This document shows positions 7,886-60,589 of a DNA stretch of 64,000 bases, piece after piece (position 1 is the first letter of the stretch; the number at the start of each line of letters is the position of its first letter). This stretch comes from a virus. The position numbers and the translations under genes were made by a program. The notes under the pieces are model-generated. The model worked only from the letters and a program-made list of their open reading frames with translations, made no database searches and was not told where the DNA came from. The stretch lies in the IMG/VR virus record IMGVR_UViG_3300045988_132703; one strand, written 5' to 3'.

Positions 7886-9049
7886 ATGTTAGATTTTGAT
7901 ATTTACTCAGATACAGACCGCGCCACCGCAGTCAAAGATGAATTATCCAAACTTACTAAACCACCCACTCAATCTCAACTTGAAACAATGGCCAATTATA
8001 TTCTTTTTGGTAAAGATTCTAATGGGCAAAATGCAGTTGACCGTGGTGAAGTTCAAATTCAAACTAAATATTCATCTTATCGCAAAAAGAAAGAAGAGTC
8101 TCTCGATGAGCTTACCGAGTCTCCTACTTTCAATGAAGCTGAACTCAAACCCATTCATCGTTCAGTTTATAAAAATCCTAAACCAGAGCTTGATCGTTCG
8201 CTTCCCGAACTCCAGCCTCTTCTCACTACCATTGCGCAATATGAATCGTAGTTAGAAGATTTAGAAAAGCTCCCGCAAACAAAAGACGTCAAAGACCGTA
8301 TCTATAATTTGAAACATTTAGTCATTTCACTTAAAAAAGAGCAATATTCACTTTAGGAAATTGTGCGCCCGCCGCTTCAATTAATGAGTTATAACCGTCC
8401 TGCGCCAGAACCTTTCGTAGACAATCTCTGCGAGAATATTGGTCCTCTCGGCTTAAAAATTGGCAATCTAACTCGATTTACTAATCCAAAAGAAGATCAT
8501 AATCAATCTCAACTTTCAGATTTTTATGATCCCACGCGCAAAGGAATTAATCTCGAAGACCCTACTCATATTTATTTTCTCATCGAGGCTTATGAGTCTC
8601 TTTATGAGAGGGGGCTAGATAATCCGTATATTAATGCTAAGTACCTAATTGAAACATTGGACTGGTATATAGATTAGGTTCCATTTGACCAGAATCGTCT
8701 GGATATTATTGCGCTCAAAAAACGCCATTGCCCCAATAGCCAAATTCGTAAATATCTTAATGAGAAATATGGATTTAATTATAGCGAAAACTATATTAGT
8801 ACAATTTACACTAAAGAAATTTGTAAAAAGATTGCGGCGCAAGTTAGTTTGCATAAAGAGAAATGGGAAAGACGTTTCGAGCCAGGAGTTTGGAAAAAGT
8901 GTTCTTGCTGCGGCGAATGGAAATTAAAAGATGCCCGCGAATTTGTAAGACGAAAAAATTCAGAAGATGGATTTACTTCTCGTTGTAAAATGTGTGATAG
9001 AAAGAAGAAATTAGCCAAGAAAATAGAAGAAAATAAACCAATAAAATAA
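7886..9049 (+). CDS. hypothetical DNA-binding-like protein with C-terminal zinc ribbon (387 aa with 3 TAG read as sense)
   Basis: Track ORFs 7886..8251, 8363..8677 and 8849..9049 are in one frame, separated only by TAG. The C-terminus has CSCCGEWK...CKMCDRKK. There is no obvious SD before the ATG at 7886. Confidence 0.55.
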
Positions 9050-9062
9050 AATAAAATTAATG

Positions 9063-9187
9063 ATCGTCGCGCAATCAAAAGCAAAACAAATGTACAAATG
9101 GTTGAAATTAGTCCATTTCAACTAGAATATCAAATTTCTGCCAATTTGAGCTTAATTTTGCTTTTGATTGCGCGACGATTTTTTTTG
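9063..9187 (+). terminator. long perfect inverted repeat plus T8 (terminator or structured element)
   Basis: A 24-bp perfect stem pairs ATCGTCGCGCAATCAAAAGCAAAA (9063-9086) with 9156-9179. The loop is 69 nt and contains its own hairpin. T8 follows. Confidence 0.65.
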
Positions 9188-9204
9188 TATAGGAAGGATT
9201 TAAA

Positions 9205-9375
9205 ATGAAATGTAATTTTAAAAAGAAAATTCAAGAAAAGAAAGTTCGTCCCGATTTTATGACAGCTTTTAATCGAGCTTTTGTAGATGGAGATTTTAAA
9301 GATTTAATTGCGCCGGAAGCAATGAATAAATCTTTACTCCAACTTTTGAAAGATTAGAGTTCTCTTTGCGAGTGA
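9205..9375 (+). CDS. small hypothetical protein (56 aa if TAG 9355-9357 is sense, 50 aa if stop)
   Basis: RBS AGGAAGGA, then ATG at 9205 (MKCNFKKKIQEKKVRPDF...). Confidence 0.45.
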
Positions 9376-9403
9376 GACTTAGTCAATAAGGAGGGATTTT
9401 ATT

Positions 9404-10357
9404 TTGAAAAAAATTAAATTCAAAATGAGAGCTTGCCCTTGCTGCGGGAATATGCTTGGCGCAAGTTCCTATCCAGAAACTAAATCTCCATTTTTCCCCG
9501 ATGGTCATTTAACTATTTGCGGCAATTGTTTAGATGAACAATTAGTTGATGTAAATGGTGAATGGGCTACAATGGATTATATTTGTGAATGGGCAGATGT
9601 TCCATTTATTCCAGAGCAGTTCACGAAAGTATGGGATTCTTGCCCAGAACATACCGCGTCCTAGTATTTAAAACTGTTTGGACAAGCTGAATATTCAAGA
9701 CTCCATTGGGCAACTTATCAAGAGAGATGGAAGAAAGCAATTGAAGATGGACAAGATAAATTACTTCATCCTTTATTTAATCAAGAAGAACTTGACCGTT
9801 TGCGAAAATCTTGGGGTAGCACCTATTCTGATGAAGAATTATATCAATTAGAAGATTTGTACACCGGTATGAAAAATAGCTTTGGTATTTCTGATCCAAC
9901 CAGAGAAGATAATGCTAAGAAGATGTGTAAAATTTCTAAAGAAATAGATAGGTGTATCGCCAATGGCGGAGCAGGACTAGATAAGCTAGTAAACTCTTAC
10001 TCTAAACTCCAAGATATAGGTGAATTTTCTTCAGAAAATGCAAAAGACTTTAATAACTTTGGTTCTATTTCTGAATTAGCCTTATACTTAGAAAAAACCG
10101 GCTGGAAGAAAAAATTCCATAATGATGAAACTCATGACGTTGTAGATAATACAATGAAAAACATTCAATCTTATAATAGAAGATTATATCAAAGTGAATC
10201 TACTATTGGTGATTAGATTGATGATGTCTTAGCGGCCAAAGCAAGAATGGATGCAATCGAAGATAAGATTTTAGATTCAGAAATGGATTAGTTTGACGTC
10301 AATGCTCTTAAATTAGATGATGAAGATTCTACGGAAGAATTTTCACCAAATATATGA
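9404..10357 (+). CDS. zinc-ribbon protein immediately upstream of terL, possible small terminase subunit (317 aa with 3 TAG as sense)
   Basis: RBS AAGGAGGG lies 10 nt before TTG 9404. Track ORFs 9404..9664 and 9800..10216 are in frame. It has CPCCGN...CGNC. The function is assigned only from position. Confidence 0.4.
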
Positions 10358-10365
10358 GGTAAAAT

Positions 10366-13300
10366 ATGGGTAAATTTAAACCGGAATTTAATATTCCAAA
10401 GAACGTTAAACTAACGGAAGAATATGTAGAATAGAATAGAAAAGAAGTAATAGGGATGATGGAGCATTTTCTTAATTATCCAGATGTGTTTTTAGATATG
10501 ATTACTCCTTCTTATTCTAATTTCTAGTTATATTTTTACTAGAGGATTTTTCTTAGGGCGGCAATTAGATATAGATACCTTTATGTTGTTGCGCCCAGAG
10601 CGTTCTCTAAATCGTTTTTATCAATTTTAGCGGGATTTCTTAGATGTATGTTCTTGCCAGGTAGTAAATTCTTTATCGTGGCCCCAGGCAAGTCTCAGGG
10701 CGCAAAAATCGCAAAAGAAAAACTTGATGAAATTTTTTAGAAATTCCCACTACTTAAAAATGAATATTTGAAATACAATTGTAGTCAAGATTACGTAACT
10801 GTGGTATTTAAAAACGGTAGCGTATTTGACGTCGTTGGTGCACTCGATAGCACCCGAGGCGGAAGAAGGAACGGTTCCCCTAGAAAAATCAAAATTTTTT
10901 GATTTCATAACTTCTTTTAGAAGACCAGAAAAAAGAATTTGCTGATAATTTAAAAACTGCCGTTCTAAAATCGCGGAATTAAGCGGGAACGCTAAAGTTT
11001 TATATTCTAAAACCATGCCAACCCGAACCGAAGGCTTTATAGCCAGGGGCAACGCATAGGGAATGAAATAATTTCCCCACGAGGCCGCGACATCTAAAAA
11101 GATGAAAAGATATGCTGAACTTATAGGAAACTATAAGAACTATAAGATAAAAAACTTATAGGATAACAATTTGGGTATTATTGACGAAGTGCGTAAAGTC
11201 ATGGATTGCGCACTAAAAATTTCCTTAATTGCTGGAAACTCTCTTTGAGACAATCAGCAGCCAAGCCGCGAAAGTGGAAGGTTCAACGACTAGCTCCTAT
11301 TGAGCGTAGTGTCAAGTGACACGAAACAGGAAACGTTTTTATAACGATGATATAGTCTAATCTTATGGGCGACCATAAGCAGCGAAAGCGGGATAGGATT
11401 AACGACCCTATTTGAATATTTTGGACCATGACGGTACTATGTTAACCGAGGTAGTTCTCCCTTAGAACTTAAAATAGGGGGCTTAATAGAGTAATCTATT
11501 ATGAAAAAGATGGTGAACGCAAGAAAAAGCGGTGTGGCGAAAGCTGCTAACGGTGAAATCGAAAGACAATACCGTGCCAAATCATATAATGAAAGGTGTA
11601 GAGACTAATTGTAGGGTAGATTTTATCACTACTCGAAGCGCCATCCAACTATTTTCCTATTTTTTTTATATTCCACTTATATATAAGACACTTATTACAT
11701 GAGGTGAATTATATGTGGAAAATTTTTGAATATGATGGTAAAGAAACTAATTATGAAGTAAGTGACGACGGATAGGTAAGAAATAGAACAACTAAAAGAG
11801 TATTGAAATAGCAGACCTCAAAAGATAATTATAAAACAGTTTCTTTATCAATAAATAAAAAACAAAAAAACATGAGAGTGCATAGACTTGTAGCATTAAC
11901 TTATATCGAAAATCCTGATAATAAAAATATTGTTAATCATATAGACGGGAATAGATAGAATAATCTAGTGTCTAATCTTGAATGGGTAACATATTCTGAA
12001 AATACACAGCACGCCATACGAATTGGTCTTATGTTACCTACTAGAGAAAAACAAGTAGATCAGTTTGATATGAATGGAAATAAAATTGCTACATATAAAA
12101 GCATAACTGATGCGGCAAATATAACAAATACTAGTCCTAATAAAATCAGTGACTGTTGTAATTTAAAAAGAAATTCTACGAATTTATTTTAGTGGAGATT
12201 TCATTCTGATGGGTATTAGAGTCTTCCAAAATCAGAAATTCCAAAAACTACTAGAAAGAGAGTAGCCAGATGTGATAAAGATGGAAATATTCTGCAAATT
12301 TATGATAGTTTACATTAGGCCGCAAAAGATGTAAATGGAACGCAAAGTGCAATAACTCATGTATTAAAAGGAGATAAATAGACAATAACTCATAAGGGTT
12401 ATTATTGGAAATTAGTTGAAGAGATAGTCCAATAAAGCTAATGAACGTCGATAGACGCGACATCTAGGGAGACATAGACCCAACAGAACCAAACTAGTAG
12501 TAGATATTCAAAAGAGTATCATTATGCAGAAATGCATAATCCAAAACTTCGTGAATTGCTGGAAAATCTAGAACAGACAATCAGCAGCCAAGCCGCAGAA
12601 GTGGAAGGTTCAACGACTATCCCTATGGGAGTAGATTCAAGCGAATCGAAGTGCGAAGCCCTTAACTCAAAAAGAGAAAGGTGAAGATATAGTCTAATCT
12701 TACGTGGGAACGTAAGCTGCGAAAGCGGAGTAAAATTAGCGACTTTACTCGAATGTTTAATGATATTACTAGTGCCGGAAATAAAGGCTCATACGCATAT
12801 GACCGACTTATAGAACTTTTAGTCCAGTCTATAGTCGCGCCAGATACATCTTTTGTATTCGGATGTGATTATCGAGTCCCGGTTATGCATGGACTTTTAA
12901 ATAAGAAGTTTATTTAGGAGTTAAAATTAAGCGGAACATACCGTGAAGACTCATTCGCACGCGAATATTTGTCCATTAACCCTCAATCCTAGTGGACACT
13001 AAACCTATTTAATTGCTGGAAAATCTCTTTTGAGACAATCAGCAGCCAAGCAATCTAAACATAGATTGAAGGTTCAACGACTATCCAATATGGAGTAGAT
13101 TATAAGCTTATGATAATCGAAAAGGTAGGGTATCTTATAATTTATAAGATATATGATATAGTCTAATCTATATAGTAATATATAGCAGTCTAATAAACGA
13201 TATCTGCTTTGCGCGCAGATATGAATAAAAATGATGGACCGGAGGGTCCTCTGAATCTTGGATAGACTATGACAAATTATCAAAATATAGAACTATAGTT

Positions 13301-14320
13301 AATCCAGAAAAAACTTCTAAACTTCAAGCTGGAGACAAGAGTTACTACTATATATCTGTAGACGTAGCTCGTAAAGGCGTGAATACTTCTGTTTAGATAT
13401 TTAAAGTGCTTCCTCAAGAAACTCGTTTCCTCAAGAAACTTGTGAATTCTTTAACATTCCATGATATGCACTTCTAGCTTCAAGCAATAGAGCTTAAAAA
13501 GTTATATCAACGCTATCATCCAAAAGAAATGTGTATTGATGGAACAGGGTTAATAACTAGCCCCTTTAGTTAGAAATGACTATCGAATAACTCTTTTAAT
13601 TGCTGGAAACCTTTATAAGGCAATCAGCAGCGAAGCTCTATATAGAGAACGTTCAACGACTAGTCGAAAGACGTAGGCTCAAGTGAGTCGAAATGGAGAG
13701 CATCCAAAAGGATGAAGATATAGTCTAATCTTATAAGCAATTATAAGCTGCGATTTATTCGCGGGGTAGGCTTAACGAACCTATCTGAATGTAATGTAGG
13801 AGTTGGCTTGATGGATTTCATGGTTATTGATTAGCTTGGTGAGGATGGCGTTATGTATCCTGCGCTAAGTTGCATTAATGACGAAGATTATAAAAAATAT
13901 TCTGGACCTAAAGTAATTTATTTATTAAAAGCTAACGCAACTGAAAATAGTTTAATTCACTCAAACTGTTATACTCAAATTGCGAATGGTTCAGTTAGAT
14001 TCTTAATTTCAGAATAGGAAGCTAAAGTTAAACTTTTAAGTACAAAGAAAGGGCAAAAAATGAAACCAGCTGAACGTTTGGTCCGTCTTGCTCCGCATAT
14101 TGAGACAACTCGTTTGTTTGAAGAAATTTGTAACTTAAAAGTTAAGAATACTGGAACTAATACCGTAGTTGAACAGATTAGCTCTAAAATCAATAAGGAC
14201 CGTTTTTCTGCTTTTGAATATGCGCTTTGGCGTATTAAAGCTGATGAAGATGAATACTTCCGTAAAAAACGTTATAAGAATAGAAGTTTAAGTAAATTTA
14301 TGCTCTTTACGAAGAAATAA
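10366..14320 (+). CDS. terL: terminase large subunit, 7 exons / 6 group I introns (545 aa)
   Basis: Exons are 10366..10875, 11174..11194, 11424..11462, 12468..12507, 12763..12976, 13261..13550 and 13797..14320, summing to 1638 nt in frame. The spliced product reads ...APRAFSKSF...STRGGRRNG|GIIDEVR|DHDGTMLTEVVLP|GDIDPTEPNQQQIY|ITSAGNKG...FAREYLS|M IDYD...YYISVDVARKG...CIDGTGL|GVGLMDF...KDRFSAFEYAL. These are the ATPase and RNaseH-like nuclease motifs. About 12 TAG codons are read as sense. RBS is GAGG. Confidence 0.85.
10876..11173 (+). mobile_element. group I intron terL-A (family V)
   Basis: It follows exon AACGGT. AACGGU can pair with GCCGTT (about 10964) with a U.G at the splice site. It ends in G before GGTATTATT. 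Its 3' half (GCAACGCATAGGGA...CCACGAGGCC...AAAAAGATGAAAAGATATGCTGAACTTATAGG...TAGGATAACAATTTG) is nearly the same as the intron at 60150-60378. Confidence 0.7.
11195..11423 (+). mobile_element. group I intron terL-B (family I, T4 td-like core)
   Basis: P1 is GTGCGT|...GCGCAC with a U.G at the splice site. Core blocks are AATTGCTGGAAA, CAATCAGCAGCCAAGC, GGTTCAACGACTA, GATATAGTCTAATC and TTAACGACC...TTGAATATTTTG, with a terminal G before GACCATGAC. Confidence 0.8.
11463..12467 (+). mobile_element. group I intron terL-C carrying an HNH homing endonuclease gene
   Basis: It follows exon CTCCCT (UCCCU can pair with GGGGG at 11476-11480). Its 5' half has GCTAACGGTGAAATC...AATACCGTGCC, as in the family IV introns of the polymerase gene. 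It ends ...CGACATCTAG before GGAGACATAGAC. The 3' boundary is inferred from frame continuity. Confidence 0.65.
11713..12435 (+). CDS. intron-encoded HNH homing endonuclease (240 aa, 7 TAG as sense)
   Basis: RBS GAGGTGA, then ATG at 11713. The protein is MWKIFEYDGKETNYEVSDDG(Q)VRN...HRLVALTYIENPDNKNIVNHIDGNR(Q)NNLVSNLEWVTYSENTQHA..., an HNH core. It has repeated ...ATYKSITDAA... / ...LQIYDSLH(Q)AAKD... modules typical of NUMOD/IENR-type DNA-binding repeats. It ends at TAA 12433-12435. Confidence 0.75.
12508..12762 (+). mobile_element. group I intron terL-D (family I)
   Basis: P1 is GATAT|TCAAAAGA GTATC with a U.G. The same core blocks as terL-B are present. It ends CGAATGTTTAATG. Splicing joins ATA T|AT ATT to give QQQIY-ITSAG. 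Confidence 0.8.
12977..13260 (+). mobile_element. group I intron terL-E (family I)
   Basis: P1 is GTCCAT|...GTGGAC with a U.G. The core blocks are AATTGCTGGAAA, CAATCAGCAGCCAAGC, GGTTCAACGACTA and GATATAGTCTAATC. It ends CTGAATCTTG. Confidence 0.75.
13551..13796 (+). mobile_element. group I intron terL-F (family I)
   Basis: It follows exon ...ACAGGGT (GGGU pairs with GCCC). The core is AATTGCTGGAAA, CAATCAGCAGCGAAGC, CGTTCAACGACTA, GATATAGTCTAATC and TTAACGAACCTATCTGAATGTAATG. Splicing gives GGG T|TA GGA, i.e. DGTGL-GVGLMDF. Confidence 0.8.
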
Positions 14321-14336
14321 AAGGAGGTCTATATAA

Positions 14337-15896
14337 ATGTAGGATATTAGCACTAAATTTGATATAGCTGAAAAATTTAAAGCTAAGAATTACGACCTCG
14401 CTCATTTTAACAAAATTGTAAAACAAGTCTCTAAAACTCAAGAACGTCCTTATCCTAGATGGGGAGATATTGGCGGACTTCCAAGAATCCAAGCACATGG
14501 TTACAAATATACAATAGAAGATGTAACTAATGCTCTTGATAACTTGAGTCTCGTTGAAATGAGAAGAATTAGTCGTTATTTTTATAATACTAGTACTTCT
14601 TATAGACGTTAGATTGACCATTTCGCACAATTGTATAAGTATTATTACGTCGTTGATTTTAAGCGCGCGGCGTAGACAAAAAAGAAAAATACTTTGCTCA
14701 AGATTTATAATGAGACTCTTGATTTTCTTGACTCAATTAATATCCGCGATATATTTGGTTATATCACTTAGAAAGTATTAATTGACGGTACATTTTTTGG
14801 GTACATAAATAAGTTTGATGATAATAAAATTACAATTACTTAGTTGAATCCTAATTACTGTCGTTCAAGAGATACAAGTGCTTATGGGACAGCTTGTGTG
14901 GAATTTAATGTCCAATATTTCACGCGCTATCAAGATAAAGCTGATTTGGAAAAGACTTTAAAGAATTTCCCAGCTGGTGTACGTTCTTATTGGAATGCTT
15001 ATCATGCAGGCAAGGTAATTTCTCCTTGGGTGCGTTTGGCAACAGAATCTTCTTGCGCTTTCTTTATGGATAATAAGTGTATTCCGCCAATTTATAGTAG
15101 CATTATTGATATTATGAATTTTGGTGACTACAAGAACATTGAGAAAAAACGTGATTCGTCAGAATTGGAAAAATTACTTGTCTAGCAATTTAAACTTGAT
15201 GAAGATGGCGATTTGGATGTCTTGATGGAAGAAATGGCTGGTATGCATGAAGCCGTTTCTCAAATGATGAATAGTCATGATAATATTGATGTTTTAACGA
15301 CCATTGCAGATAATGTCGATTTAAAAGATACTCAATCTAATACTAATCGTTCTGGTGAAACTAATCTTCAAAAAATGCTACTTCCAAAATATGAAAATGC
15401 TGGACTTAGTTCTGAAATTTTCTATGCTACTGGTGGCACAACTTTAGAGTATTCCGTAAATAATGCTACTTCCTTTATGAGTCAATTGATAGACAAATAT
15501 TCAACTTGGCTCTCAATGTTGTGTTATAGTCAATTCAACTATGGTAAGATTATTCCAATAGTAACCATTCTGCCAATCACTTGGTACAATCAATCAAAAA
15601 TGGCTGATATGTATATCAAGAACTCTCAGTATGGCTTCTCTTGGATTCTTCCATATGTTGCTAGTGGTAAAAAGCAATCGACACTTCTTGACAATGCTTA
15701 TATTGAGCAAGAAGTTTTGAATCTTTCTGAGGTTATGCGCCCATTGAGTTCTTCTTTTACTTAGACAGATGAAGGAAACGGTAATGGTAATAAGACTTCT
15801 ACTCAGAAGAAGCCTGCTGGTACACCAGGACGCCCTGAAAAGCCAATAGAAGAAAAGAGCGATAAGACAATAGCAAACATAAATGCTCAATAGTAA
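14337..15896 (+). CDS. portal protein (519 aa, 8 TAG as sense)
   Basis: RBS AAGGAGG, then ATG at 14337. Track ORFs 14844..15185 and 15213..15764 are in frame with it. The only in-frame stops are TAG until TAA 15894-15896. The assignment rests on position after terL and on size. Confidence 0.7.
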
Positions 15897-15913
15897 TAGG
15901 CGAGGAAGTCCTT

Positions 15914-17350
15914 ATGGAAAAGAAAATCCCTACTACATTCGTTGGTGAGATTGCTGAGGAACTTACACAAGTTTCTCCCGAAATATCTAAAACACGATTA
16001 AGAATTTTCTATAAAGGATTTAATCGTAACTAGGGATATATTACTGACGAATTTGCTGAAAAGTTATTAAGTTCTCTACCTTATACTCCCGTAGTTGGCA
16101 TATTTAATGATTTGGTCAAAGATTTTGGCGGCCACAATCAAGACCGAAATGTTGCTAAAATGTATGGTGTGGTGCCGCAAGACCCACACTTTGCTTGGGA
16201 AGACCATTTAGATTCAGATGGTGTAACGAGAACTTATGCTTGCACGGATGTGTATTTGTATACTGGGCGCTATGACGCTGCGAAATTGATTCCTGGTAAA
16301 CAGCAATCAATGGAGTTAGATACAAAAACAATTCGTGGTGATTGGCAAGTTATAAACGAATACGGTCAAGAGGGTTTTGTTTATACCGATGCGCGATTTA
16401 TTGGTTTAAGCGTGCTTGGAGATGATAAAACTCCTTGTTTTGAAGGCTCCGCATTCTACGAACTTGTTAGTCAATTTAATGATTTTATGGCCGCTAAAAC
16501 TTCAAATGGAGGAAATGATATGGCATTAGAAATTACTAAGCCTGTCGATGGTTCTGATCAAATAGAATCAGAGATTGATGCAGCTACTTCTGCAACTCCT
16601 GCGGAATCATCTGGTCCATCTACTGAGCAAACCGAAGACACAACAGATTCTACTCCTTCTAATGAATCTGCGGCCGAGACAGCTGATGAAACTCCTGATG
16701 GAGACTCTTCTACTGACGATAAGAAAGATGAAGAGTCTGCCGATGACAAAAAGGATGAAGAAAAGCCGGCTGACTCTGAATCTAACCCGGACGAGGACAA
16801 GAAAGAAGAGGACAAGCCCACTGATTCTGCTTGTAAAGATAAGAAAGCAGATGCTGAAAAAGAAGAGAACAAATCTGCCGATTCTGTTTGCGGAAATAAG
16901 AAAACAGATGCTGAAGCTCAAGAGAAAAAAGAAGAGAACAAATCTGCCGATTCTGAATTAACTCCTTCAAATTTTGAAAATCTCAATAACAAAATTTTAG
17001 AGCTAAATCAGCAATTAGCTACTTATGAAGCAGAAGCAAATAAATTCAAAAATTTGTATACTGCTCTCAAAGCAGATTACGATGTTTTAGTTGCAGAGAA
17101 GAACAAAGAGTTAGCCGCGCAGAAAGACGCGAAACTCCAAGAGTACACTAGTTACATTAGTGATGCTGTAAAGCAAGATTTTGAGTCTCGCTTGGATTCT
17201 TACTCTACTGTTGATGATTTAGAGAAAGACCTTCTTTTTGCGGCTAAGCCTTCTTTATTTGCTAAGCACGATGATTTCGCTCCTACTTCAACTTATGAGG
17301 TTGATGAAGATGAAATCACTGCACTCATTAAAAAGAGTATGAAACATTAA
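15914..17350 (+). CDS. scaffolding-like protein with an acidic low-complexity linker and a C-terminal coiled coil (478 aa, 1 TAG)
   Basis: ATG at 15914 is in frame with track ORF 16112..17350. The middle part is rich in D/E/K/S/T (DDKKDEE... repeats). The C-terminus is heptad-like (LNQQLATYEAEANKFKNLYTALKADYDVLVAEKNKELAAQ). It lies between portal and capsid genes. Confidence 0.55.
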
Positions 17351-24520: not shown

Positions 24521-27500
24521 ATGGCTACAAAAGGCAATATTAATTTATAGCTAAACATAAATACCCAGTTTACTAATGTAAAATCTGCGGTTGACGCTTT
24601 TCAAAAATAGCTGTCTAATATAAAGATAGATACTAATTTTAGCAATAGTAAAGGATTAGCAGATAATTTCTCTAAATAGGCCGATTAGATTAGAATTAAG
24701 TTACAAGAAATTAATGATTTTGATTTTAATACTGATTCTTCTAAAAATTATGCTGCTTTATTACAAGACGTCAGAACTTAGTATGCGCAATTATCTGCGG
24801 CTGTTAATGATTATAAAGTTTCACTTGGAAAAGAAAAAAGTGAAGTTCAAGATAAATTAAAAACAGAATAGGAAAATCTCCAAGCTTTAAAAGAAAAAAG
24901 TAAAACTGAGAAAGAGTACATTGATGGGTTTCGGGATTATCATAAAGTTTTAGCAGAAGCAAAAGCATAGAATCGAGAATTAACTGACGATGAAAAATTA
25001 TTAGTTGCGACTTATAGTTCTGAAACTAAAACTATGAAGCAGCTAAAAGAAGAACATAAAAATACTAATCAAGCCAAAAGGGATTCTTAGGCTGAAATTA
25101 AAAAATTATAGGCGGCAGATAAATCTTATACTGCTTTATTAAAAACTGAAAAAGAAGTTCAATCTCAAGTTAAAACTGCGATTGATACTACCACTAAAGC
25201 AAGAGAAGATGAATATACCGCTGCGCGAAACCAAGAAGCTATAAATAAAGCTAATGCAGCATAGTCTCAACAACAAGTAAAAAACAATTAGAAAATAGCA
25301 GAGTCTGCAAAAAAGGCTGCAGATGAGGCTGCAAGAATTTAGCAAGAATGGAATATCACTTCCGAAACTTTTTCTTCTAACTTCGAAGCCGCGGCAACCA
25401 GTTCGAATAAATTAACTTCAGCTCTTGAAAGTCAAATTACAAAATGGACTTCTTTAGGTTTTATAGTCCATACTACTATAAATGCAATTCGAGATATTGT
25501 TCAAACATATCAAGAACTTGATGATAATTTAAGCGCAATTTCTGCTGTTAGCGGGATTGCAACAGAATCACTTTGGGGCAATATGCCACAAATGATTGAT
25601 AATGCTAATTCATTAGCATTATCTGTTGATGATTTAACTAATGGCATGTTATTATTCTACCAGCAAGGTTTAAGCACAGAAGAAACTGAAATTCGTCTTA
25701 ATGCTGCTGGTAAGATGGCTGCGATTTCTTAGCAAGATTTAGCTACAGCCGTTGATCAATTAACTTCTACCATGAATGCTTTTGGTATGGAAGGCGACGA
25801 TGCAGCTAGTGTTGTTGATGTTTTTGCCAACATGGCTGGTAGAACTGCAACTGACGTTGAAGAACTTGCAACAGCTATGGCTCGTACCGCTTCTATCGCA
25901 AAGAACGCTGGCATGAGTTTTGAACAAACGACTGCTTTCATTGCCACAATGGAAGAAACTACTCGTTTGAGTGCTGAAACAATCGGTAACTCCATGAAGA
26001 GCATTATTGCTCGATTCCAAAAATTAAAGACTGATCCTGATTCTTTATTGGAAGATGGGGTTAATGCAAACGATGTCGAAAAAGCATTAAAGAAAGCAGA
26101 TGTTGCACTTCGTGATACAGAAGGTAATTTCCGTAATATCGGTGACGTTATTATGGAATTGTCTGCTAAGTGGGATACATTAGATACTAACACTTAGAAG
26201 TACATTGCGACGATGGCAGCTGGCACTCAATAGTCTTCAAACTTTATCGCATTAGTTAGTAACAATCAATCAAATATTGATAACCTTGCTTATGCTATGG
26301 ACGCTGCTGGAGCAGCAGAAGAACAATTTGCAGCAGTTAGTACAAATATTAGTTCTGCATTAACTCGATTAGATAATAATTGGATTAAATTAAAGACTTC
26401 TTTTAACGATGGAAGAAACATTATCGTAGATGTTATTAATGATTTAAGTTCTTTAGTTGGTTTTGTAGCTGATTTAGGTCCAGCTTTTACAACTGCAACA
26501 GCAGCTATTGGCCTCGCGGCAATCAAAATGGCTTTGTTTACTACTAAAAGCGCAAGACAAGTCTCAATTCAAGAATTAAAAAATACTATTACTAAATCAG
26601 GAATGGACTTAGATAAACAAGATAAGTTAATGACAGATTTAGTTAGCGCCGCGAAAGAGAAACAAACTAAAAGAGTTATTGAACTTAGAATTGCTACTGA
26701 AAAATTATCTGATGCAGAGAAAAAGCAAATTGCAGATGCTTATGAATAGGCAACAGCAAATAACGCTTCTTTATTAACTTGGAAGAATTTAAAAGCGTCT
26801 ATTGGAGATGCTGCAAATCAATTATTTGCTTTTGTATCAACTCCTATAGGAGCCATTTCTGCCTTAGTTGCAGTTATTACTGCTATTACTTGGGCAATGG
26901 ATAAATTTGGTATTTCTGTTAAAGGAGCAAAAGAACAATTAGAAAATACTCGTTCTGAATGGCAATCTACTCAATCAGAACTAGAGAGTACATAGACTCA
27001 ATTAGATAGTATTGCTTAGAAGATTGATGAAATTAATAGTAAAGATGTTATTACTTTATCTGATGCTCAAGAACTTTCAAATTTAACTTTAGAAAATATA
27101 AAATTACAAGAGCAAGTTGATTTACTAAAACAAAAAGCTGATTTACAAAGAGATCAAACTATTAAAGAAGAAAAAGATTCTTTTGATGCTTATAAAAATA
27201 AAGAAAATATAAAGAATGCATTTTTAGGAACTAAAGATAGTTTAGACAGTAAAATTGCAGAATACAGTGGGATAAAAGATAAAGATTGGTCTGGCTAGTT
27301 TGATGAGAAACTTAATGAATGGTATCGAAATAAGTTAAAAGAAGAATTAGTTGCACGAGAAGAACTTGCTATTTAGACAATAAAAGATCTTGATGACAAA
27401 ATGACTGCAGAAGGAAAAGATTCTCTTACTCAAAGAGAACAAGAACTTTATGCAGAAGCTAAAGAATGGCGCGATAAAATTTAGAAAGAACTATCTCCAG

Positions 27501-30500
27501 AAACTTATGTTAGAAACGCTATTGCTGATACAGTTTTTGCAGATCCAGAAACTTTAGTTGCAGTTCAAAATGCAGGTAAAGAAATAATGGACAATCTTGC
27601 TAATGGGATGATAAGCGATAGTGAAGCATAGATTCAAATAGGAGACCTTTTAGGCGAATATCTTACTAATCCAGAATTGCTCAATAAAATTGGAGCAACA
27701 GAAGACGATGTACAGACAATGTCCGATGCATTAATTGAGTTAGCTTTAAACGAAGGTAATGCTCGAGATAATTTAGTTAGACTAAATTCATCTGTCCAAT
27801 AGTACGGTAATATTGCTAATAATTCTCGCCAGATTATAACTTGGAATAGTGAAGCGATTCAAAAATGGGGAGATGCTTTAGCAAGTTGGCAAATGAATGC
27901 CGACGAATTTGAAGGATCAATTTCTACTGCCCTTGGAAGTTTTGATTATATTAATGAAAATGGTTTCTCTGACGCTTCTAATGGTATAGCAATTGCTTTT
28001 ACTCCAATTTTAAATACCGATGATGGTCCAAAAGTCTTATCCAATAGCGAAATGAATAATTATTTGCAATAGATATATGCTAATGCAAATGGAGATGCCA
28101 ATAAACTATTGGAAGAAGACGCAAAAGGCGTCAAAATGGTCGTCAATAATCAGCTAGTTGAAGTTAAAAATATGCTAGCGGGTGCAGAAGGAGCTATTGT
28201 TGATGGAGTAAAAGAAACGGCTGAGGACTGTGCTGGAATGTCTGGAATGGCAGCAGAAGATATTAAAGCGCAATTTGGCGAAACTGGACGCTATGCAGAA
28301 GATTCTATGCACTAGGTTCAAGAAGCTTTTATTCGTGCCTAGGAAGCTCTTTCAGAAACTAATCCTTTCCTTGCAATGGCTCTATAGCTTATTATGCAAA
28401 TGTCTGGATTAGATTTTTCCTCTTTAGATGATGGATTAAACGATGCTGCTGATGCAGCAGATAATGCAACAAATGCAGTGTCTTCTTTAAAAACTTAGAT
28501 GTCAGAAGTTAGCAATGCGGCTTCTGATTTAAAAAATGCTGCAAGTGATCTTTCAGGAGTTGCAGATGCCTATAAAACATTAACTACTGCAATTAAAGAT
28601 TATAACGCTGATGGGAATATTACTCTTTCCAATCTTGAAAGTTTGCTTTCATTATCTCCAGAGTATCTTTCTTGTTTAGAGATGGAGAACGGTCAATTAT
28701 CTCTAAATACAGAAGGATTAAAAGGCATTGTTTTAATGCGAATCCAAGCTGCAAAAGCAGCTGCCTATCAATCAGCAATGGAGTAGATTCAAGCAATTAC
28801 AATGTCATCGTCTGCTACTGCTGCGAGTACAGCTGGTGAAGCAATTGCAGGAATGGAAGCTGCAACTTCAAATGCTGCAACGGCAATGTCTACAGCATCT
28901 AATACAGCAGCAACTTCAACTGGCACGATGGCTAATTTAGCTTAGTCTGGTTATACAGTAGCCGCGGGTTTTGACACTGCCGCATCTTCAGCTGCTAATT
29001 TTAATAATGTTTTAGCTAATAAATTAACTGAAGCAGGAACTGGTATTAAATATACAGCAGAAGATGTCGCAAGCATGATTGCTGGAGATATATCTGGGAT
29101 TACTGATGTTTTAGGGGATGCTGTTGGCGATGTAGTAACTGGTTTGCAAAGCCAACTCTCGATGCTTGACAATTTAGAGAATCAAGTCAATTCAATGGAT
29201 TTTGGTTCTTTTATTGGAAAGTATGGTGGTTCAAGCAAAGGTGGTTCTGGTGGTTCTGGCACTAAAGGTGCAACGGAAGCATCTAACGAATTAAAAAATG
29301 CACTTGAAGCGCAAAAGAAAGCTCTTTAGGAACAACAAAAAGAGCTTGAAAAATCTAAATCAGCAATTGAGGAATAGAAAAAAGCTCTTGAAGATCAAAA
29401 GAAAGCTCTTGAAGAAACTAACAAACAACTTCAAGAGAACTACAAACTTTATGTCGAGTTAATCAAGTCTCGCCTTAATGACGAAATCGACCGTCAGACC
29501 ACTCGCATCGAAGCCTTTTACGATGCAATCAAAGATACCATTCAATCCGAAATTGATTCTTTCAATGACCAACTCGATGCCCTTAAAAAGCAAGCTGATG
29601 AACTCAAATCTAAAGCCGACGAACTTCAAGATGCAGCAGACCAACAAGAGGATTCTCTCAACAAACTCTATGACGCTGCCCAAGCCTACTATGATGCTGC
29701 TCAAGATGGTCTCGATAATCAAATCGACTCTTACGATAAAGTAATTGACCGCAACAAAGAGCACATCGACCTCCTTAATGAGCAAAAAGACGCTATTCAA
29801 GACCAAATTGATGCACTTGATACTGCGGCTGATAGTGAATCAAAACTTCTTGCTCTTGAAAAAGCTCGTGATGCTTTAGCTAACGCTCGCAACCAAAAAA
29901 CCCGTATGGTTCTTACCAACGGTGGTTGGCGTTTACGTACTGATAAGTCCGAGATTTCTAATGCTCAATCTAATCTTGTATCTGCTCAGCGCGATTATTA
30001 GAAAGAAATTCTTGAACGCCAACAAAAGAAAATCGAGGAACAAACTGATGAAATCGAGAAACAGAACAATAATCTTGAAAATATTAAGTCTGACCTCGAA
30101 GACCAAAAAGACGCTCTCGATGATATTAAAGATCAATGGGATAAAGCTCAAGATGCTCTTGGCAAGACCACATCTGAACTTGAAGAATAGACTAATTTAA
30201 TTCGTCAATTCCAATATGGAAACGATGCAAGTCGTCAAGATCAACTTTCAAACTTTTCTGGACAAGTTTCAAATAATAATCAATAGCAACAAGCAGCGTC
30301 TGATGCAACTAACCGTGCAAATGAAGCATCTAATAAATATGACCAATAGAGTAATGAAGATGTCCAAGGTTCTATTGCTGAAGCTATTAAAAAACTCGAA
30401 GAACAGCAAAATCAAGCCGATGAAGCCTTAAAACAATATTTCGAGAATCAACTTTCAAATAATGCTGAAACTGCTCAAATTCAGCAAGAAATGAAAGATT

Positions 30501-31483
30501 TGATTAATCAAATGGTTAATGGCTAGATTGGTCAATTAGAGAATTTTGCATAGTTCTATGAAACAATTAATGGCGCGCTTGAACAAGCTAACACCAATGC
30601 AAGTCAAACGGCAGATTATATTAATAATATAAATGCTGCGATTGATCGCTATGATGAATGGTCTAATCGTTTAGATATGACCACTGATGAAATTAATCAG
30701 CGTCAAGCGATAATGAATGAAATCAATAATGCTACTCTTGGTTCTTTACTTGAAGGCGGTTCTACTTTTGGACAACTTCAAGGACAGTATGAGCAAATTG
30801 TTAGGAATAATGATGAAGCTGAAAGAATTCAAGATCAGATTGACGGACTTGATGAACAAGCTAATGTTATTCAAACATAGATTAATGCATTAAAAGAACA
30901 AGAAAATAAAATCTCTGAGCAAGAAAAAGAGTTAAGTAACGCTAATAGCAATAAAACTGCTAACGCTGCAAAAGCTGCTGGCAATACTGCTGCTTCTGGC
31001 GCAAAAGCTGCTGGCTCTGGTATTCGAACTAACGCAGATAAAAATACCGCTAGAATTATTGATGCCATTAATAGCAAAGATATTTCTGTTACAATTTAGG
31101 AAACATCTAAGGGTTCTGGTGGCGGTTCTGGAAAGTATCTAATGGCCAGGTATAATACTGGTGGCATGTTAGGGTTTTCTCATGGAGGAGTTGATGATGT
31201 TACAACTGTTGCGGCTGTGCATGGTTCTAAAAATCGTCCCGAACTTGTCCTCAACAATTCTCAATCAGCTGCTTTGTTCAAATACATAGACAGTATGACA
31301 AGGATTCCTACTTTATCTTCAGCAGGAAGTGCTCGAAATGCTCTTATGGGCTTCGGCACAACCAATAATACAAACAACAACGGAACTAATTTCACTAATT
31401 GTGAATTTAATGTTGAGAGTAATGCTGATAACTTAGACTCCTTGGTTCAAGACTTGAAACAAAGCGCTTCAATTAGGAGATAA
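24521..31483 (+). CDS. tail tape measure protein (2320 aa, dozens of TAG as sense)
   Basis: RBS GAGGTGA. Track ORFs 25772.., 26297.., 28109.., 28499.., 29075.., 30677.. and 31142..31483 all share the frame of the ATG at 24521, and there is no TAA or TGA in that frame. The core ...LSAISAVSG...MNAFGMEGDDAASVVDVFANMAGRTATDVEELATAMARTASIAKNAGMSFEQTTAFIATMEE... is the canonical tape-measure region. The flanks are long coiled coils and hydrophobic segments. Confidence 0.85.
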
Positions 31484-41827: not shown

Positions 41828-41981
41828 AAGAGTTTTCAATCTCCTTTAGTTCTTGTAAAATTTTTCTTACTCCTTCTCGCCACATTGGCATATCAGGAGA
41901 ATATTCTCCATTTGCAATAGAAATATTTATCTTATTTTGAAGCTGTTTTAATTCAGCTTGTAAATCTTGAATAGTTTTCAT
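41820..41981 (-). CDS. small hypothetical protein (53 aa)
   Basis: This ORF is below the track cut-off. ATG at 41981 overlaps the upstream TGA (ATGA). The protein is MKTIQDLQAELKQLQNKINISIANGEYSPDMPMWREGVRKILQELKEIENSYE. Confidence 0.4.
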   Translation of the reverse strand: MKTIQDLQAELKQLQNKINISIANGEYSPDMPMWREGVRKILQELKEIENSYE

Positions 41982-60588: not shown

Positions 60589-60589
60589 A

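What the first reader, a model, noticed from the sequence alone, without database searches (positions are those of the whole stretch)
10366..14320. The large terminase gene is split by six group I introns, leaving micro-exons of 21, 39 and 40 nt
Only about 41 percent of the 3955-nt terL locus is coding. Each proposed junction restores a conserved terminase segment: GGRRNG|GIIDEVR|DHDGTMLTEVVLP|GDIDPTEPNQQQIY|ITSAG..., then FAREYLS|M.., then DGTGL|GVGLMDF. Every 5' splice site follows a U that can form a U.G pair in a P1 helix, for example GTGCGT/GCGCAC, GATAT/GTATC and GTCCAT/GTGGAC. Every intron ends in G. The exon lengths sum to a multiple of 3. Four introns share the blocks AATTGCTGGAAA, CAATCAGCAGC, GTTCAACGACTA and GATATAGTCTAATC, which resemble the P3-P4, P7 and P7' cores of T4 td and Tetrahymena introns. 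Two adjacent introns are separated by a 21-nt exon that encodes the Walker B segment. I do not know of a terminase gene described with this architecture.
Basis: partly seen in the sequence, partly recalled or inferred. Interest (0 to 1): 0.9.

Follow-up and report, generated by a model that had tools for sequence, protein, structure and literature searches.

The report
Phage terminase gene with six introns
The DNA-packaging (large terminase) gene of a roughly 179-kb gut phage that reads TAG as glutamine is interrupted by six self-splicing-type group I introns, an unusually heavy load of a well-known kind of mobile element, and the load ranges from zero to six among near-identical phages.

Summary
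The core claim holds: window 10366-14320 (+) is one terL gene interrupted by six group I introns.

- **Intron evidence.** Four introns pass Rfam RF00028 (73-98 bits). The other two (29 and 22 bits) were confirmed through same-site homologues, with 98.7% of cells paired and 16/47 and 20/56 compensatory pairs.
- **Corrections.** Two junctions were wrong. Intron 3 ends at 12437, not 12467, which restores the conserved LMNVDRRDIQ. Intron 5 ends at 13233, not 13236, which restores IW. Exons are 510, 21, 39, 70, 214, 317 and 524 nt, giving 1695 nt and 564 aa.
- **Gene integrity.** The product aligns without gaps at every junction to 120 uninterrupted homologues. The DNA aligns junction for junction with an intron-less allele. 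TAG encodes Q: 13 in-frame TAGs, several at invariant Q positions.
- **Fold.** A model of the 88%-identical intron-less homologue matches solved large terminases.
- **Population variation.** Among phages sharing an identical major capsid protein, terL carries 0, 1, 2, 4 or 6 introns. Relatives have endonuclease-containing versions at five of the six sites.
- **Novelty.** Modest. terL genes with two or three group I introns, small internal exons and exon skipping are published, as are intron-dense recoded phages. This is an extreme member of a known kind.

Splicing itself is inferred, not shown.

The parts
10366..10875 (+). terL exon 1 (510 nt, aa 1-170; ends ...GGRRNG)
   Evidence: The ATG is at 10366. 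The exon is collinear with the intron-less allele L001 up to 10875. Against L001 it has 59 synonymous and 31 non-synonymous codon changes.
10876..11173 (+). Intron 1 (298 nt), an ORF-less group I intron. P1 is AACGGU/GCCGUU, with the guide sequence at 10959-10964 and a loop extension of about 75 nt. P7 is GCAUA/UAUGC.
   Evidence: RF00028 scores 28.8 bits, below threshold. The same-site family in L082, L087, L104 and L106 shows 98.7% pairing and 16 of 47 pairs with compensatory change, including P3 and P7. The minimum-energy fold recovers P1, P3, P8 and P9. In L087 and L106 the P1 loop carries a GIY-YIG ORF.
11174..11194 (+). terL exon 2, a 21-nt micro-exon (GIIDEVR; Walker B hhhhDE with the catalytic Glu)
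   Evidence: It is contiguous with exons 1 and 3 in intron-less L001, and with exon 3 in L082. Of its 7 codons, 5 differ synonymously and 1 non-synonymously from L001. D174, E175 and R177 are invariant in the homologue alignment.
11195..11423 (+). Intron 2 (229 nt), an ORF-less group I intron. P1 is GUGCGU/GCGCAC (11208-11213).
   Evidence: RF00028 scores 73.2 bits, E 1.2e-16. It is absent from the close relative L082. Same-site introns carrying a GIY-YIG ORF occur in L094 and L103.
11424..11462 (+). terL exon 3, a 39-nt micro-exon (DHDGTMLTEVVLP)
   Evidence: It aligns to L001 1780-1818 and runs directly on to 12438 aligned with L001 1819.
11463..12437 (+). Intron 3 (975 nt), a group I intron with an HNH ORF in the P8 loop. 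P1 is UCCCU/GGGGG (11477-11481). P8 is 11647-11657 paired with 12407-12417. J8/7-P7' (GAAGAGAUAGUCC) is at 12418-12430. Only AAUAAAG follows P7', so there is no P9 hairpin.
   Evidence: RF00028 scores 21.6 bits on the 5' part only. Family alignments with the ORF removed (L098, L099, L125) show 98.7% pairing and 20 of 56 compensatory pairs. The corrected 3' end is fixed by protein and DNA alignments.
11713..12435 (+). Intron-3 homing endonuclease ORF (240 aa; NUMOD4, HNH_3, NUMOD1 and I-HmuI NUMOD-like domains). It has 7 in-frame TAG codons and its stop codon lies 2 nt before the 3' splice site.
   Evidence: Pfam hits have E values from 4.6e-11 to 4.8e-7. PHROG phrog_59 (HNH endonuclease) scores 1.6e-46. 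ORF scan, coordinates.
12438..12507 (+). terL exon 4 (70 nt, LMNVDRRDIQGDIDPTEPNQQQI plus the first base of Y).
   Evidence: Three consecutive TAG codons align with Q in homologues.
12508..12762 (+). Intron 4 (255 nt), an ORF-less group I intron. P1 is GAUAU/GUAUC (12516-12520).
   Evidence: RF00028 scores 85.6 bits. The homologue in L082 is 98.7% identical but carries an extra segment of about 850 nt encoding a GIY-YIG ORF near its 5' end.
12763..12976 (+). terL exon 5 (214 nt; (Y)ITSAG...FAREYLS plus the first two bases of I)
12977..13233 (+). Intron 5 (257 nt), an ORF-less group I intron. P1 is GUCCAU/GUGGAC (12992-12997). The corrected 3' splice site is after G13233.
   Evidence: RF00028 scores 78.9 bits. 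Same-site homologues with an HNH ORF in P8 occur in L017, L023 and L056, with identical splice-site geometry. The IW junction matches 120 of 120 homologues without a gap.
13234..13550 (+). terL exon 6 (317 nt; (I)WTGGS...IDGTG plus the first base of L; start of the nuclease domain)
   Evidence: 91.8% nt identity to L001; 16 synonymous and 4 non-synonymous changes.
13551..13796 (+). Intron 6 (246 nt), an ORF-less group I intron. P1 is GGGU(UA)/(UA)GCCC (13558-13563).
   Evidence: RF00028 scores 97.5 bits, E 6e-24. It is absent from L082, which reads GGAACAGGACTTGGAGTT across the empty site, and present in L172 and L175.
13797..14320 (+). terL exon 7 (524 nt, ending in TAA at 14318-14320)
   Evidence: 97.7% nt identity to L001.

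Best explanation
Window 10366-14320 (+) is the large terminase gene (terL) of a phage of about 179 kb with an SPbeta-like head and tail module. The phage reads TAG as glutamine in its late genes.

**What is there.** The gene is interrupted by six group I introns belonging to three sequence families.
- Introns 2, 4, 5 and 6 form one family. They resemble IA-type phage introns and carry extra helices (P7.1/P7.2) between P7 and P3'.
- Intron 1 is a second family.
- Intron 3 is a third family. It carries an I-HmuI-like HNH homing endonuclease gene in its P8 loop.

**How it most likely works (inferred).**
- The gene is transcribed as one pre-mRNA.
- Each intron folds. Its guide sequence pairs with the last 4-6 exon bases to form P1, with a U.G pair at the splice site. 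Guanosine attacks there, and the freed exon end then attacks after the terminal G of the intron.
- Six such events join seven exons (510, 21, 39, 70, 214, 317 and 524 nt) into a 1695-nt reading frame encoding a 564-aa TerL.
- The insertion points lie in or next to the most conserved ATPase and nuclease motifs: Walker B GGIIDE, DHD, PLMNV, ITSAG, IWTGG and IDGTGLG. These are the sites that homing endonucleases typically target.

**How it arose.** The introns arrived by endonuclease-driven homing. Related phages carry the same sites empty, occupied by an ORF-less intron, or occupied by an intron encoding a GIY-YIG or HNH endonuclease. This genome has accumulated the full set, and five of its six introns have lost or never had their endonuclease gene.

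**Shown versus inferred.** Shown here: the RNA folds (by model scores and covariation), the exact boundaries, the integrity and selective constraint of the spliced frame, and the presence/absence polymorphism. Inferred: actual splicing, its order and efficiency, and endonuclease activity.
For: **RNA evidence**
- RF00028 scores 73-98 bits for introns 2, 4, 5 and 6.
- RNAalifold on those four introns recovers P3, P4, P5, P6, P7.2, P8, P9 and P9.2. Of 48 predicted pairs, 28 show compensatory changes.
- The intron 1 family shows 98.7% of cells paired and 16 of 47 compensatory pairs, against 29-43% paired in slid controls.
- The intron 3 family, with the ORF removed, shows 98.7% paired and 20 of 56 compensatory pairs, against 30-47% in slid controls.
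- All six introns follow a U and end in G, and each has a P1 helix with a U.G pair.

**Boundaries**
- DNA alignment to the intron-less allele L001 is collinear at every junction.
- The close relative L082 (89-99% nt identity) lacks introns 2, 3 and 6 precisely.
- The corrected protein has no gap at any junction against 120 homologues.

**Gene integrity**
- There is no in-frame TAA or TGA. The 13 in-frame TAG codons fall at Q positions, for example aa 59 (Q in 120/120 homologues) and aa 212 and 464 (109/120 each).
- Divergence is mostly synonymous in every exon, including the 21-nt exon.

**TerL identity**
- PHROG terminase families match.
- The AlphaFold model of the 88%-identical homologue P0001 (pLDDT 83.9) matches T4 gp17, Sf6 gp2 and D6E large terminases at E 1e-13 to 4e-16.
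- The gene sits between YonG-like and portal/YonD/YonB-like genes.

**Mobility**
- ORF-containing same-site introns occur in relatives.
- Phages sharing an identical major capsid protein carry 0, 1, 2, 4 or 6 terL introns.
- Intron 3 encodes an HNH endonuclease with NUMOD domains.
Against: - No RNA data: splicing of any of the six introns is unproven.
- Introns 1 and 3 score below the Rfam gathering threshold (28.8 and 21.6 bits against 50).
- Intron 3 has no room for a P9 hairpin. Only 7 nt follow P7', and the endonuclease ORF overlaps P8', J8/7 and P7'. Its exon-ligation competence is therefore uncertain.
- Intron 3 also has a conserved 34-nt two-hairpin insertion between P3 and P4, which I could not place in standard nomenclature.
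- Six sequential splicing events and 21- and 39-nt exons invite exon skipping, as reported for SIOphi terL (PMC11878797). Skipping would delete Walker B.
- Pfam gives no hit to the spliced protein at E <= 0.01. A profile search of PDB sequences also found nothing. TerL identity therefore rests on PHROG matches, fold and gene context.
Confidence: 0.88

Rival explanations
1. This is a defective or partly crippled terL allele. At least one insertion no longer splices; the P9-less intron 3 and the divergent intron 1 are the candidates. The six-intron genome would then be non-viable, or would rely on a co-infecting relative for terminase.
For: Intron 3 lacks P9, and its ORF overlaps the ribozyme core. 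Introns 1 and 3 are sub-threshold in Rfam. Same-site relatives L098, L099 and L096 appear to end in A rather than G, which hints that members of this family may be decaying.
Against: All exons are intact, in frame and under purifying selection. The core helices of introns 1 and 3 are 98.7% paired with many compensatory changes across relatives. The allele sits in a 178.7-kb assembled genome that is 100% identical to the window over 21 kb. The ORF-less relative L125 shows that the intron 3 fold is maintained.
Confidence: 0.07
2. Some of the insertions are not group I introns but other interrupting elements: inteins, group II introns, free-standing endonuclease cassettes, or programmed translational bypass regions. 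TerL would then be made by protein splicing or as separate polypeptides.
For: Two insertions fail the Rfam threshold. crAss-like phages combine inteins with TAG recoding in terL (PMC7886860).
Against: Every insertion hits a TAA or TGA in the exon frame within 21-79 nt, so none is an in-frame intein. No Hint or intein domain and no reverse transcriptase is present; the only ORF is an HNH endonuclease. No other Rfam family scores in the region. The 7-aa and 13-aa exons have no start codons and cannot be separate proteins. All insertions have group I cores supported by covariation.
Confidence: 0.03
3. This is an assembly artefact. Repeated intron cores caused a metagenome assembler to stitch copies into terL, or to build a chimera of several strains.
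For: Four introns share conserved cores. The population is highly polymorphic at exactly these sites.
Against: The four related introns are only about 69% identical to one another, with unique flanks. Each intron is also found at the same site in independent assemblies from other samples: L082, L172, L175, L017, L094 and L098. The exon order and frame are perfect.
Confidence: 0.02

Closest known systems
Group I introns in terL of Bacillus Bastillevirinae phages (SIOphi, phiAGATE and others; PMC11878797)
   Same: The host gene is the same (large terminase). The introns are IA-type group I introns carrying HNH or GIY-YIG endonucleases. There are several introns per gene, small internal exons, and insertion in core motifs. 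Splicing was shown in vitro and in vivo for those phages.
   Different: That study reports at most three introns per terL, and only 5 of 52 terL genes were split. Here there are six, with adjacent 21-nt and 39-nt exons, in a TAG-recoded phage from an unrelated, uncultured lineage. Nothing has been tested experimentally here.
Staphylococcus phage Twort orf142 (three group I introns, exon skipping; Landthaler & Shub 1999, PMC22036, as cited in PMC11878797)
   Same: It is a single late structural gene carrying several closely spaced self-splicing group I introns.
   Different: It has three introns rather than six, sits in a tail-tube gene rather than terL, and uses the standard genetic code.
Intron- and intein-dense crAss-like phages (Zeta and Delta groups; PMC7886860) and Jug phages (PMC12880540)
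   Same: These are gut phages whose essential genes are fragmented by many group I introns. Examples include an MCP gene in five fragments, up to 14 introns per genome, and terL in 2-3 fragments. Some combine this with TAG recoding of late genes. Jug phage splicing is supported by metatranscriptome reads.
   Different: The phage lineage is different: an SPbeta-like morphogenesis module, not Crassvirales or Jug. Intron density is higher in a single gene (six). At least 12 RF00028-type hits lie in 64 kb.
Intron-encoded I-HmuI-type HNH endonucleases of Bacillus phage SPO1/SP82 DNA polymerase introns (recalled from memory; the domain family is Pfam PF22083)
   Same: The intron 3 ORF has NUMOD4, HNH_3, NUMOD1 and I-HmuI NUMOD-like domains. 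It lies inside a peripheral loop of a group I intron.
   Different: Here the ORF runs through P8', J8/7 and P7' to within 2 nt of the 3' splice site. The intron lacks P9, and the ORF contains seven TAG (Gln) codons. Cleavage activity and target are untested.

Membership tests
Group I intron (Rfam RF00028) | The covariance-model score reaches the curated gathering threshold (50 bits). | tested here: inconclusive
   Met for introns 2, 4, 5 and 6 (73.2, 85.6, 78.9 and 97.5 bits). Not met for intron 1 (28.8 bits) or intron 3 (21.6 bits). The low score of intron 3 is explained by the 750-nt ORF splitting P8. The ORF-containing intron 5 homologues in L017, L023 and L056 likewise give no gathering-level hit.
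Group I intron (Rfam RF00028) | A conserved core (P3-P7 pseudoknot, P4-P6 domain, P8) maintained by compensatory substitutions. | tested here: met
   Introns 2, 4, 5 and 6: 28 of 48 RNAalifold pairs are compensatory. Intron 1 family: 98.7% paired, 16 of 47 compensatory, including P3 and P7. Intron 3 family: 98.7% paired, 20 of 56 compensatory. Slid-partner controls give 29-47% paired.
Group I intron (Rfam RF00028) | The 5' splice site follows a U that forms a U.G wobble in P1 with an internal guide sequence, and the intron ends in G (omega G). | tested here: met
   All six introns have T at position -1 and G as their last base with the corrected boundaries. P1 partners lie at 10959, 11208, 11477, 12516, 12992 and 13558.
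Group I intron (Rfam RF00028) | Precise excision restores the host reading frame. | tested here: met
   In silico only. The spliced frame of 1695 nt is collinear base for base with the intron-less allele L001. It is gap-free at all six junctions against 120 homologues.
Group I intron (Rfam RF00028) | Guanosine-dependent self-splicing of the RNA. | not testable with these tools
   This needs in vitro transcription with GTP, or RNA-seq or RT-PCR.
Subgroup IA (IA2-like phage introns) | Extra helices P7.1/P7.2 between the 5' strand of P7 and the 3' strand of P3. | tested here: inconclusive
   All six introns carry a 20-45 nt insertion at that position. P7.2 (introns 2, 4, 5, 6 and the intron 3 family) and P7.1 (intron 1 family) show compensatory changes. 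No subgroup-specific covariance models were available, so the subgroup is not assigned formally.
Large terminase subunit (TerL) | An N-terminal ASCE ATPase domain plus a C-terminal RNase-H-like nuclease domain, with Walker A/B-type motifs. | tested here: met
   The model of the 88%-identical homologue P0001 (pLDDT 83.9) matches full-length T4 gp17, Sf6 gp2 and D6E TerL at E 4e-16 to 1e-13. It also matches isolated ATPase and nuclease domains. PHROG phrog_9 scores 4.5e-11 and phrog_5909 scores 1.7e-6. GGIIDE is invariant. There is no Pfam hit at E <= 0.01 and no PDB sequence hit.
HNH homing endonuclease (I-HmuI-like) | An HNH catalytic motif plus NUMOD DNA-binding modules, encoded inside an intron. 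| tested here: met
   Pfam hits: NUMOD4 1.1e-9, HNH_3 2.7e-8, NUMOD1 4.6e-11 and I-HmuI_NUMOD-like 4.8e-7. The ORF at 11713-12435 lies inside intron 3. Nuclease activity and target site were not tested.
Intein | An in-frame insertion translated with the host protein and carrying a Hint domain. | tested here: not met
   Each insertion meets a TAA or TGA in the exon frame 21-79 nt after the junction. No Hint domain was found.
Group II intron | A domain V/VI RNA structure, usually with a reverse-transcriptase ORF. | tested here: not met
   An Rfam scan of 10300-14400 at E <= 10 found no group II family. No RT ORF is present.

The most novel reading that the evidence does not exclude
Accumulating introns at all six homing sites may be adaptive rather than mere parasitism. 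Each occupied site destroys the recognition sequence of one of the GIY-YIG or HNH endonuclease families circulating in this phage population. A six-intron terL would then be immune to cleavage by every one of them during co-infection. Its own intron 3 HNH could still cut intron-less rivals. Because that ORF carries seven TAG codons, it would be translated only once TAG is decoded as Gln late in infection. The 0-to-6 polymorphism among phages with identical capsid genes would then reflect ongoing interference competition at the packaging gene. The 21- and 39-nt exons could also allow exon-skipped, inactive TerL isoforms that tune packaging.
Probability: 0.2. Interest if true: 0.7.

Novelty: new member of a known kind. 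Interest (0 to 1): 0.45.

Why it matters
**Annotation.** Gene callers report this terL as fragments: a 178-aa ORF, an HNH gene and a 169-aa ORF in the identical contig L170. The corrected exon map gives a usable 564-aa TerL for phylogeny and taxonomy of a widespread gut phage. Its exact capsid protein is indexed in 282 blocks of the assembly collection.

**Biology.** This is a natural series of alleles carrying 0, 1, 2, 4 or 6 introns in otherwise near-identical genomes. Across the wider terL family, sites are seen empty, occupied by an ORF-less intron, or occupied by an intron with an endonuclease gene. That is an unusually complete snapshot of the homing cycle. It is also a good system for several questions:
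- How many ribozymes can one essential mRNA tolerate?
- How do adjacent introns share a 21-nt exon for P1 and P10 pairing?
- Does exon skipping occur?
- How does stop-codon recoding interact with intron and endonuclease expression?

None of this changes current understanding of group I introns.

Tried and rejected
**Searches that found nothing**
- Pfam on the spliced TerL: no hit at E <= 0.01.
- Profile search of PDB sequences with the TerL alignment: no hit. Fold comparison was needed instead.
- Megablast of 9000-16000 against INPHARED phages: only short intron-core matches, so the phage is not in that collection.
- Exact-pattern scans for the exon 2 junction in IMG/VR and in JGI metagenome contigs: none.
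- tRNA scan of the window: none, so no suppressor tRNA lies in these 64 kb.

**Inconclusive**
- Host assignment from GTDB genomes. The 15 relatives sit in gut MAG bins of inconsistent taxonomy (Muribaculaceae, Methanobrevibacter, Mollicutes, Clostridia and others), which probably reflects mis-binned phage contigs.
- An Rfam gathering scan of relatives whose introns contain ORFs missed them. Low Rfam scores therefore do not exclude ORF-split introns.

**Rejected**
- Intein, group II intron, pseudogene and assembly-artefact readings (see the rival explanations).

**Not attempted**
- Subgroup assignment with subgroup-specific covariance models, which were not available.
- Building my own covariance model.

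Full report
**1. What is in the sequence**

Reading 10366-14320 on the + strand with TAG as a sense codon gives seven coding segments separated by six non-coding insertions.

An Rfam scan of the whole window found four RF00028 (group I intron) hits above the gathering score. All lie in this locus on the + strand: 11185-11379 (73.2 bits), 12498-12716 (85.6), 12888-13185 (78.9) and 13541-13747 (97.5). At a permissive threshold the other two insertions also hit RF00028 on the + strand: 10908-11137 (28.8 bits) and 11460-11714 (21.6 bits). No other family scored credibly.

**2. Exon-intron boundaries**

The best is P0001, at 564 aa and 88% identity. Aligning these showed two errors.
- Ten conserved residues (LMNVDRRDIQ) were missing after ...EVVLP.
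- One residue was wrong and one missing at ...YLS(M)-TGG, which should read ...YLSIWTGG.

Both are repaired by moving a 3' splice site to another G. Intron 3 ends at 12437, so exon 4 is 12438-12507 (70 nt). Intron 5 ends at 13233.

With these changes the exons are:

| Exon | Coordinates | Length (nt) |
|---|---|---|
| 1 | 10366-10875 | 510 |
| 2 | 11174-11194 | 21 |
| 3 | 11424-11462 | 39 |
| 4 | 12438-12507 | 70 |
| 5 | 12763-12976 | 214 |
| 6 | 13234-13550 | 317 |
| 7 | 13797-14320 | 524 |

The sum is 1695 nt, giving 564 aa, the same length as P0001.

The DNA of the intron-less allele (L001, the contig encoding P0001) aligns collinearly across every junction. For example, window 11462 aligns with L001 1818 and window 12438 with L001 1819. 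Against 120 homologues no junction has a gap. All six introns follow a T and end in G.

**3. Is the spliced frame a real, functional gene?**

- The spliced frame has no in-frame TAA or TGA.
- It has 13 in-frame TAG codons. They sit at positions where homologues have Q: aa 59 (Q in 120/120), aa 212 and 464 (109/120 each) and aa 210 (88/120). TAG = Gln is therefore well supported.
- Across the window, in-frame TAGs are concentrated in + strand structural genes, with 40 in the tape-measure gene. Most replication-type genes on the - strand have none or one, although three - strand ORFs have five to eight.
- Against L001, every exon has more synonymous than non-synonymous codon changes. Exon 2 has 5 against 1 in seven codons, exon 4 has 13 against 4, and exon 1 has 59 against 31. 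All segments, including the micro-exons, are therefore translated in this frame and under purifying selection.

TerL identity rests on four lines of evidence.
- PHROG terminase families match: phrog_9 at 4.5e-11 and phrog_5909 at 1.7e-6.
- An AlphaFold model of P0001 (pLDDT 83.9) has large terminases as its best PDB matches, both full-length and as separate ATPase and nuclease domains: T4 gp17 at E 3.7e-16, then Sf6 gp2 and D6E.
- GGIIDE is an invariant Walker-B-like motif.
- The gene lies between a YonG-like gene and portal/YonD/YonB/YomW/YomV/YomU-like genes, which is an SPbeta-like morphogenesis module.

Pfam and PDB sequence searches were negative.

**4. Are all six insertions group I introns?**

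*Introns 2, 4, 5 and 6* are one family, with a mean column identity of 69%. RNAalifold, run without prior structure, recovers P3, P4, P5, P6, P7.2, P8, P9 and P9.2. Of 48 pairs, 28 keep pairing through changes on both sides.

*Intron 1* has these elements:
- P1 is AACGGU/GCCGUU, closing a loop extension of about 75 nt.
- P3 is UCGCGG/CCGCGA, and P4-P6 are present.
- P7 is GCAUA/UAUGC, which is doubly compensatory relative to GACUA/UAGUC in the other introns.
- P7.1, P8, P9 and P9.1 are also present (and by reading the sequence).

Same-site introns from four other contigs were aligned to it. My stated structure, including the P3/P7 pseudoknot, is 98.7% paired with 16 of 47 compensatory pairs. 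Slid-partner controls give 29-43%.

*Intron 3* scored poorly because its HNH ORF sits in the P8 loop.
- P8 is AACUAUUUUCC (11647-11657) paired with GGAAAUUAGUU (12407-12417).
- The consensus-like J8/7-P7' sequence GAAGAGAUAGUCC lies at 12418-12430, inside the last codons of the ORF.
- The 3' splice site follows 7 nt later.

With the ORF loop removed, it was aligned to same-site introns from L098 and L099 and to the naturally ORF-less L125. The structure is 98.7% paired with 20 of 56 compensatory pairs, against 30-47% in slid controls.

The same ORF-in-P8 layout explains why the ORF-containing intron 5 homologues in L017, L023 and L056 were invisible to Rfam at the gathering threshold.

I conclude that all six are group I introns from three families.

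Two features of intron 3 remain odd. It has no P9 hairpin, whereas L125 has a 4-bp mini-P9 and L098 a 7-bp one. It also has a conserved 34-nt pair of hairpins between P3 and P4.

**5. Mobility and population context**

The window is 100% identical over 21,131 nt to ENA assembly ERZ28595307, scaffold_48 (178,663 bp). The exact major capsid protein of the window is indexed in 282 blocks of the assembly collection.

terL intron content in ten contigs that share this exact capsid protein:

| Contig(s) | Introns | Sites occupied |
|---|---|---|
| L173, L176 | 0 | none |
| L177 | 1 | site 5 |
| L168, L169, L171, L174 | 2 | various |
| L172 | 4 | sites 1, 4, 5, 6 |
| L175 | 4 | sites 2, 4, 5, 6 |
| L170 (identical to the window) | 6 | all |

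The IMG/VR relative L082, which is 89-99% identical in nucleotide sequence, has introns 1, 4 and 5. It lacks introns 2, 3 and 6 exactly at the predicted boundaries.

In more distant terL relatives, 30 of the 152 loci then held were split. The insertion points recur at aa 170|171, 177|178, 190, about 214, 285 and 390, plus at least two further sites.

Relatives carry endonuclease-encoding versions at five of the six sites:
- GIY-YIG at sites 1, 2 and 4 (L087 and L106; L094 and L103; L082).
- HNH at sites 3 and 5 (L098 and L102; L017).

The P1-loop extension of intron 1 in the window lies where the GIY-YIG ORF sits in its relatives. This is the classic homing cycle of empty, ORF-containing and ORF-less sites, seen at six sites of one gene.

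The sites coincide with the most conserved motifs: Walker B, DHD, PLMNV, ITSAG, IWTGG and IDGTGLG.

**6. Mechanism**

*Shown:* the folds, the boundaries, the constraint on the exons and the polymorphism.

*Inferred from established group I chemistry:*
- Guanosine attacks at the U.G pair of each P1, and exon ligation follows after the terminal G. This happens six times on one pre-mRNA.
- The 21-nt exon must supply the P1 strand of intron 2 (GUGCGU, its last 6 nt). Any P10 pairing for intron 1 would use its first bases.
- Exon skipping, documented for Twort orf142 and SIOphi terL (PMC11878797), is a real risk. It would remove Walker B.
- In the unspliced RNA, ribosomes entering an intron meet a TAA or TGA 21-79 nt in. 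For introns 3, 5 and 6 they first read through one or two TAG codons.
- The intron 3 endonuclease ORF has seven TAGs. It can therefore be made only when TAG is decoded as Gln, as proposed for a recoded intron endonuclease in Agate phages (bioRxiv 10.1101/2021.08.26.457843).

**7. Comparison with what is known, and novelty**

Group I introns in phage terminase genes are established (PMC3984707). The closest published cases are these:
- Bastillevirinae terL genes carry two or three introns, with a small internal exon and exon skipping shown experimentally (PMC11878797).
- Jug phages have terL in two or three fragments, with splicing supported by metatranscriptomes (PMC12880540).
- crAss-like Zeta phages have an MCP gene in five fragments, up to 14 introns per genome, and TAG recoding (PMC7886860).

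I found no report of six introns in one phage gene, or of adjacent 21- and 39-nt exons. The searches cover only the held library.

I therefore file this as an extreme new member of a known kind. Its secondary points of interest are the 0-6 polymorphism, the P9-less intron whose ORF overlaps the ribozyme core, and the combination with recoding.

**8. Verdict**

- The novelty claim is overstated.
- Confidence that these are six group I introns whose removal yields a functional 564-aa TerL is 0.88.
- Interest is 0.45.

Noticed in passing
window 43054-48454 (- strand); RF00028 sub-threshold hits at 44496-44788 and 45446-45736; HNH-like ORF at 46453-46941 with a J8/7-like motif at about 46388: A DNA polymerase III alpha (DnaE-like) gene also appears to be split. 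Pfam hits cover two fragments: PHP plus the pol3-alpha NTPase domain at 47123-48454, and the finger domain at 44753-45388. ORFs at 45742-46053 and 43054-44217 may be further fragments, but I did not test them. Two sub-threshold RF00028 hits and an HNH-like ORF followed by a J8/7-like motif lie between the pieces, suggesting about three group I introns. One may carry its ORF in P8, as terL intron 3 does.
   Followed up: partly
window 57669-63843 (- strand); RF00028 hits at 60995-61285, 61388-61622 and 62650-62681; similarity to an intron 1-type element at 60157-60320: The gyrase/topoisomerase genes are likewise fragmented. The pieces include an N-terminal fragment (63502-63843), a GyrB domain (61553-62500), a fragment at 60590-60979 and GyrA (57669-59528). 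Several sub-threshold group I hits and an HNH-like ORF (62683-63321) lie between them. Another partial hit lies at 50242-50424, between the 355-aa ORF at 50668-51735 (no Pfam hit) and the RecJ-like gene. Together with terL this makes at least 12 RF00028-type hits in 64 kb.
   Followed up: partly
whole window; e.g. 24521-31483 (+): TAG is used as a sense codon (Gln) mainly in + strand structural genes. The 2320-aa tape-measure gene has 40 TAGs and terL has 13. Most - strand replication genes have none or one, though three - strand ORFs (40299-41045, 41978-43054 and the reverse-strand ORF at 12146-12475) have four to eight. No tRNA gene, and hence no suppressor tRNA, lies in the window.
   Followed up: partly
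terL exons compared with L001 and L173 (window 10366-12976 against 13234-14320): Divergence is mosaic. Exons 1-5 are only 67-82% identical in nucleotide sequence to the intron-less allele. Exons 6-7 and the downstream genes are 92-98% identical, and the capsid protein is identical. The 5' half of terL therefore exists as two diverged allele classes within one phage species. This could reflect recombination or co-conversion linked to intron homing.
   Followed up: no
L098 about 9540-9570, L099 and L096 (same-site relatives of intron 3): In these relatives the intron 3-type intron seems to end ...AUUUAAUA|CUCAUG. The last base would then be A, not G, if the protein junction is P|LMNV as in all homologues. 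An alternative G-ending splice site would add three residues (YLI). I could not decide between these readings.
   Followed up: partly
window 11520-11553 (intron 3); homologous positions in L098, L099 and L125: There is a conserved pair of small hairpins (CGC...GCG and GUGGC-GAAA-GCUGC) between the 5' strand of P3 and P4, both with compensatory changes in relatives. I do not know a standard group I element at this position.
   Followed up: partly
L104 (terL 8001-12170) and L122: More distant terL relatives carry insertions at further sites not occupied in the window, near aa 226 and aa 253-269. L104 has at least four insertions. This terL family therefore has at least eight distinct insertion sites.
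   Followed up: no
L168 15081-15632: In one phage with the identical capsid protein, an HNH/NUMOD4 ORF lies between the YomV-like gene and the first tail-tube (YomU-like) gene. That first YomU-like gene is called shorter there (256 aa) than in the other loci (270 aa). Intron or endonuclease polymorphism may therefore extend to tail genes as well.
   Followed up: no
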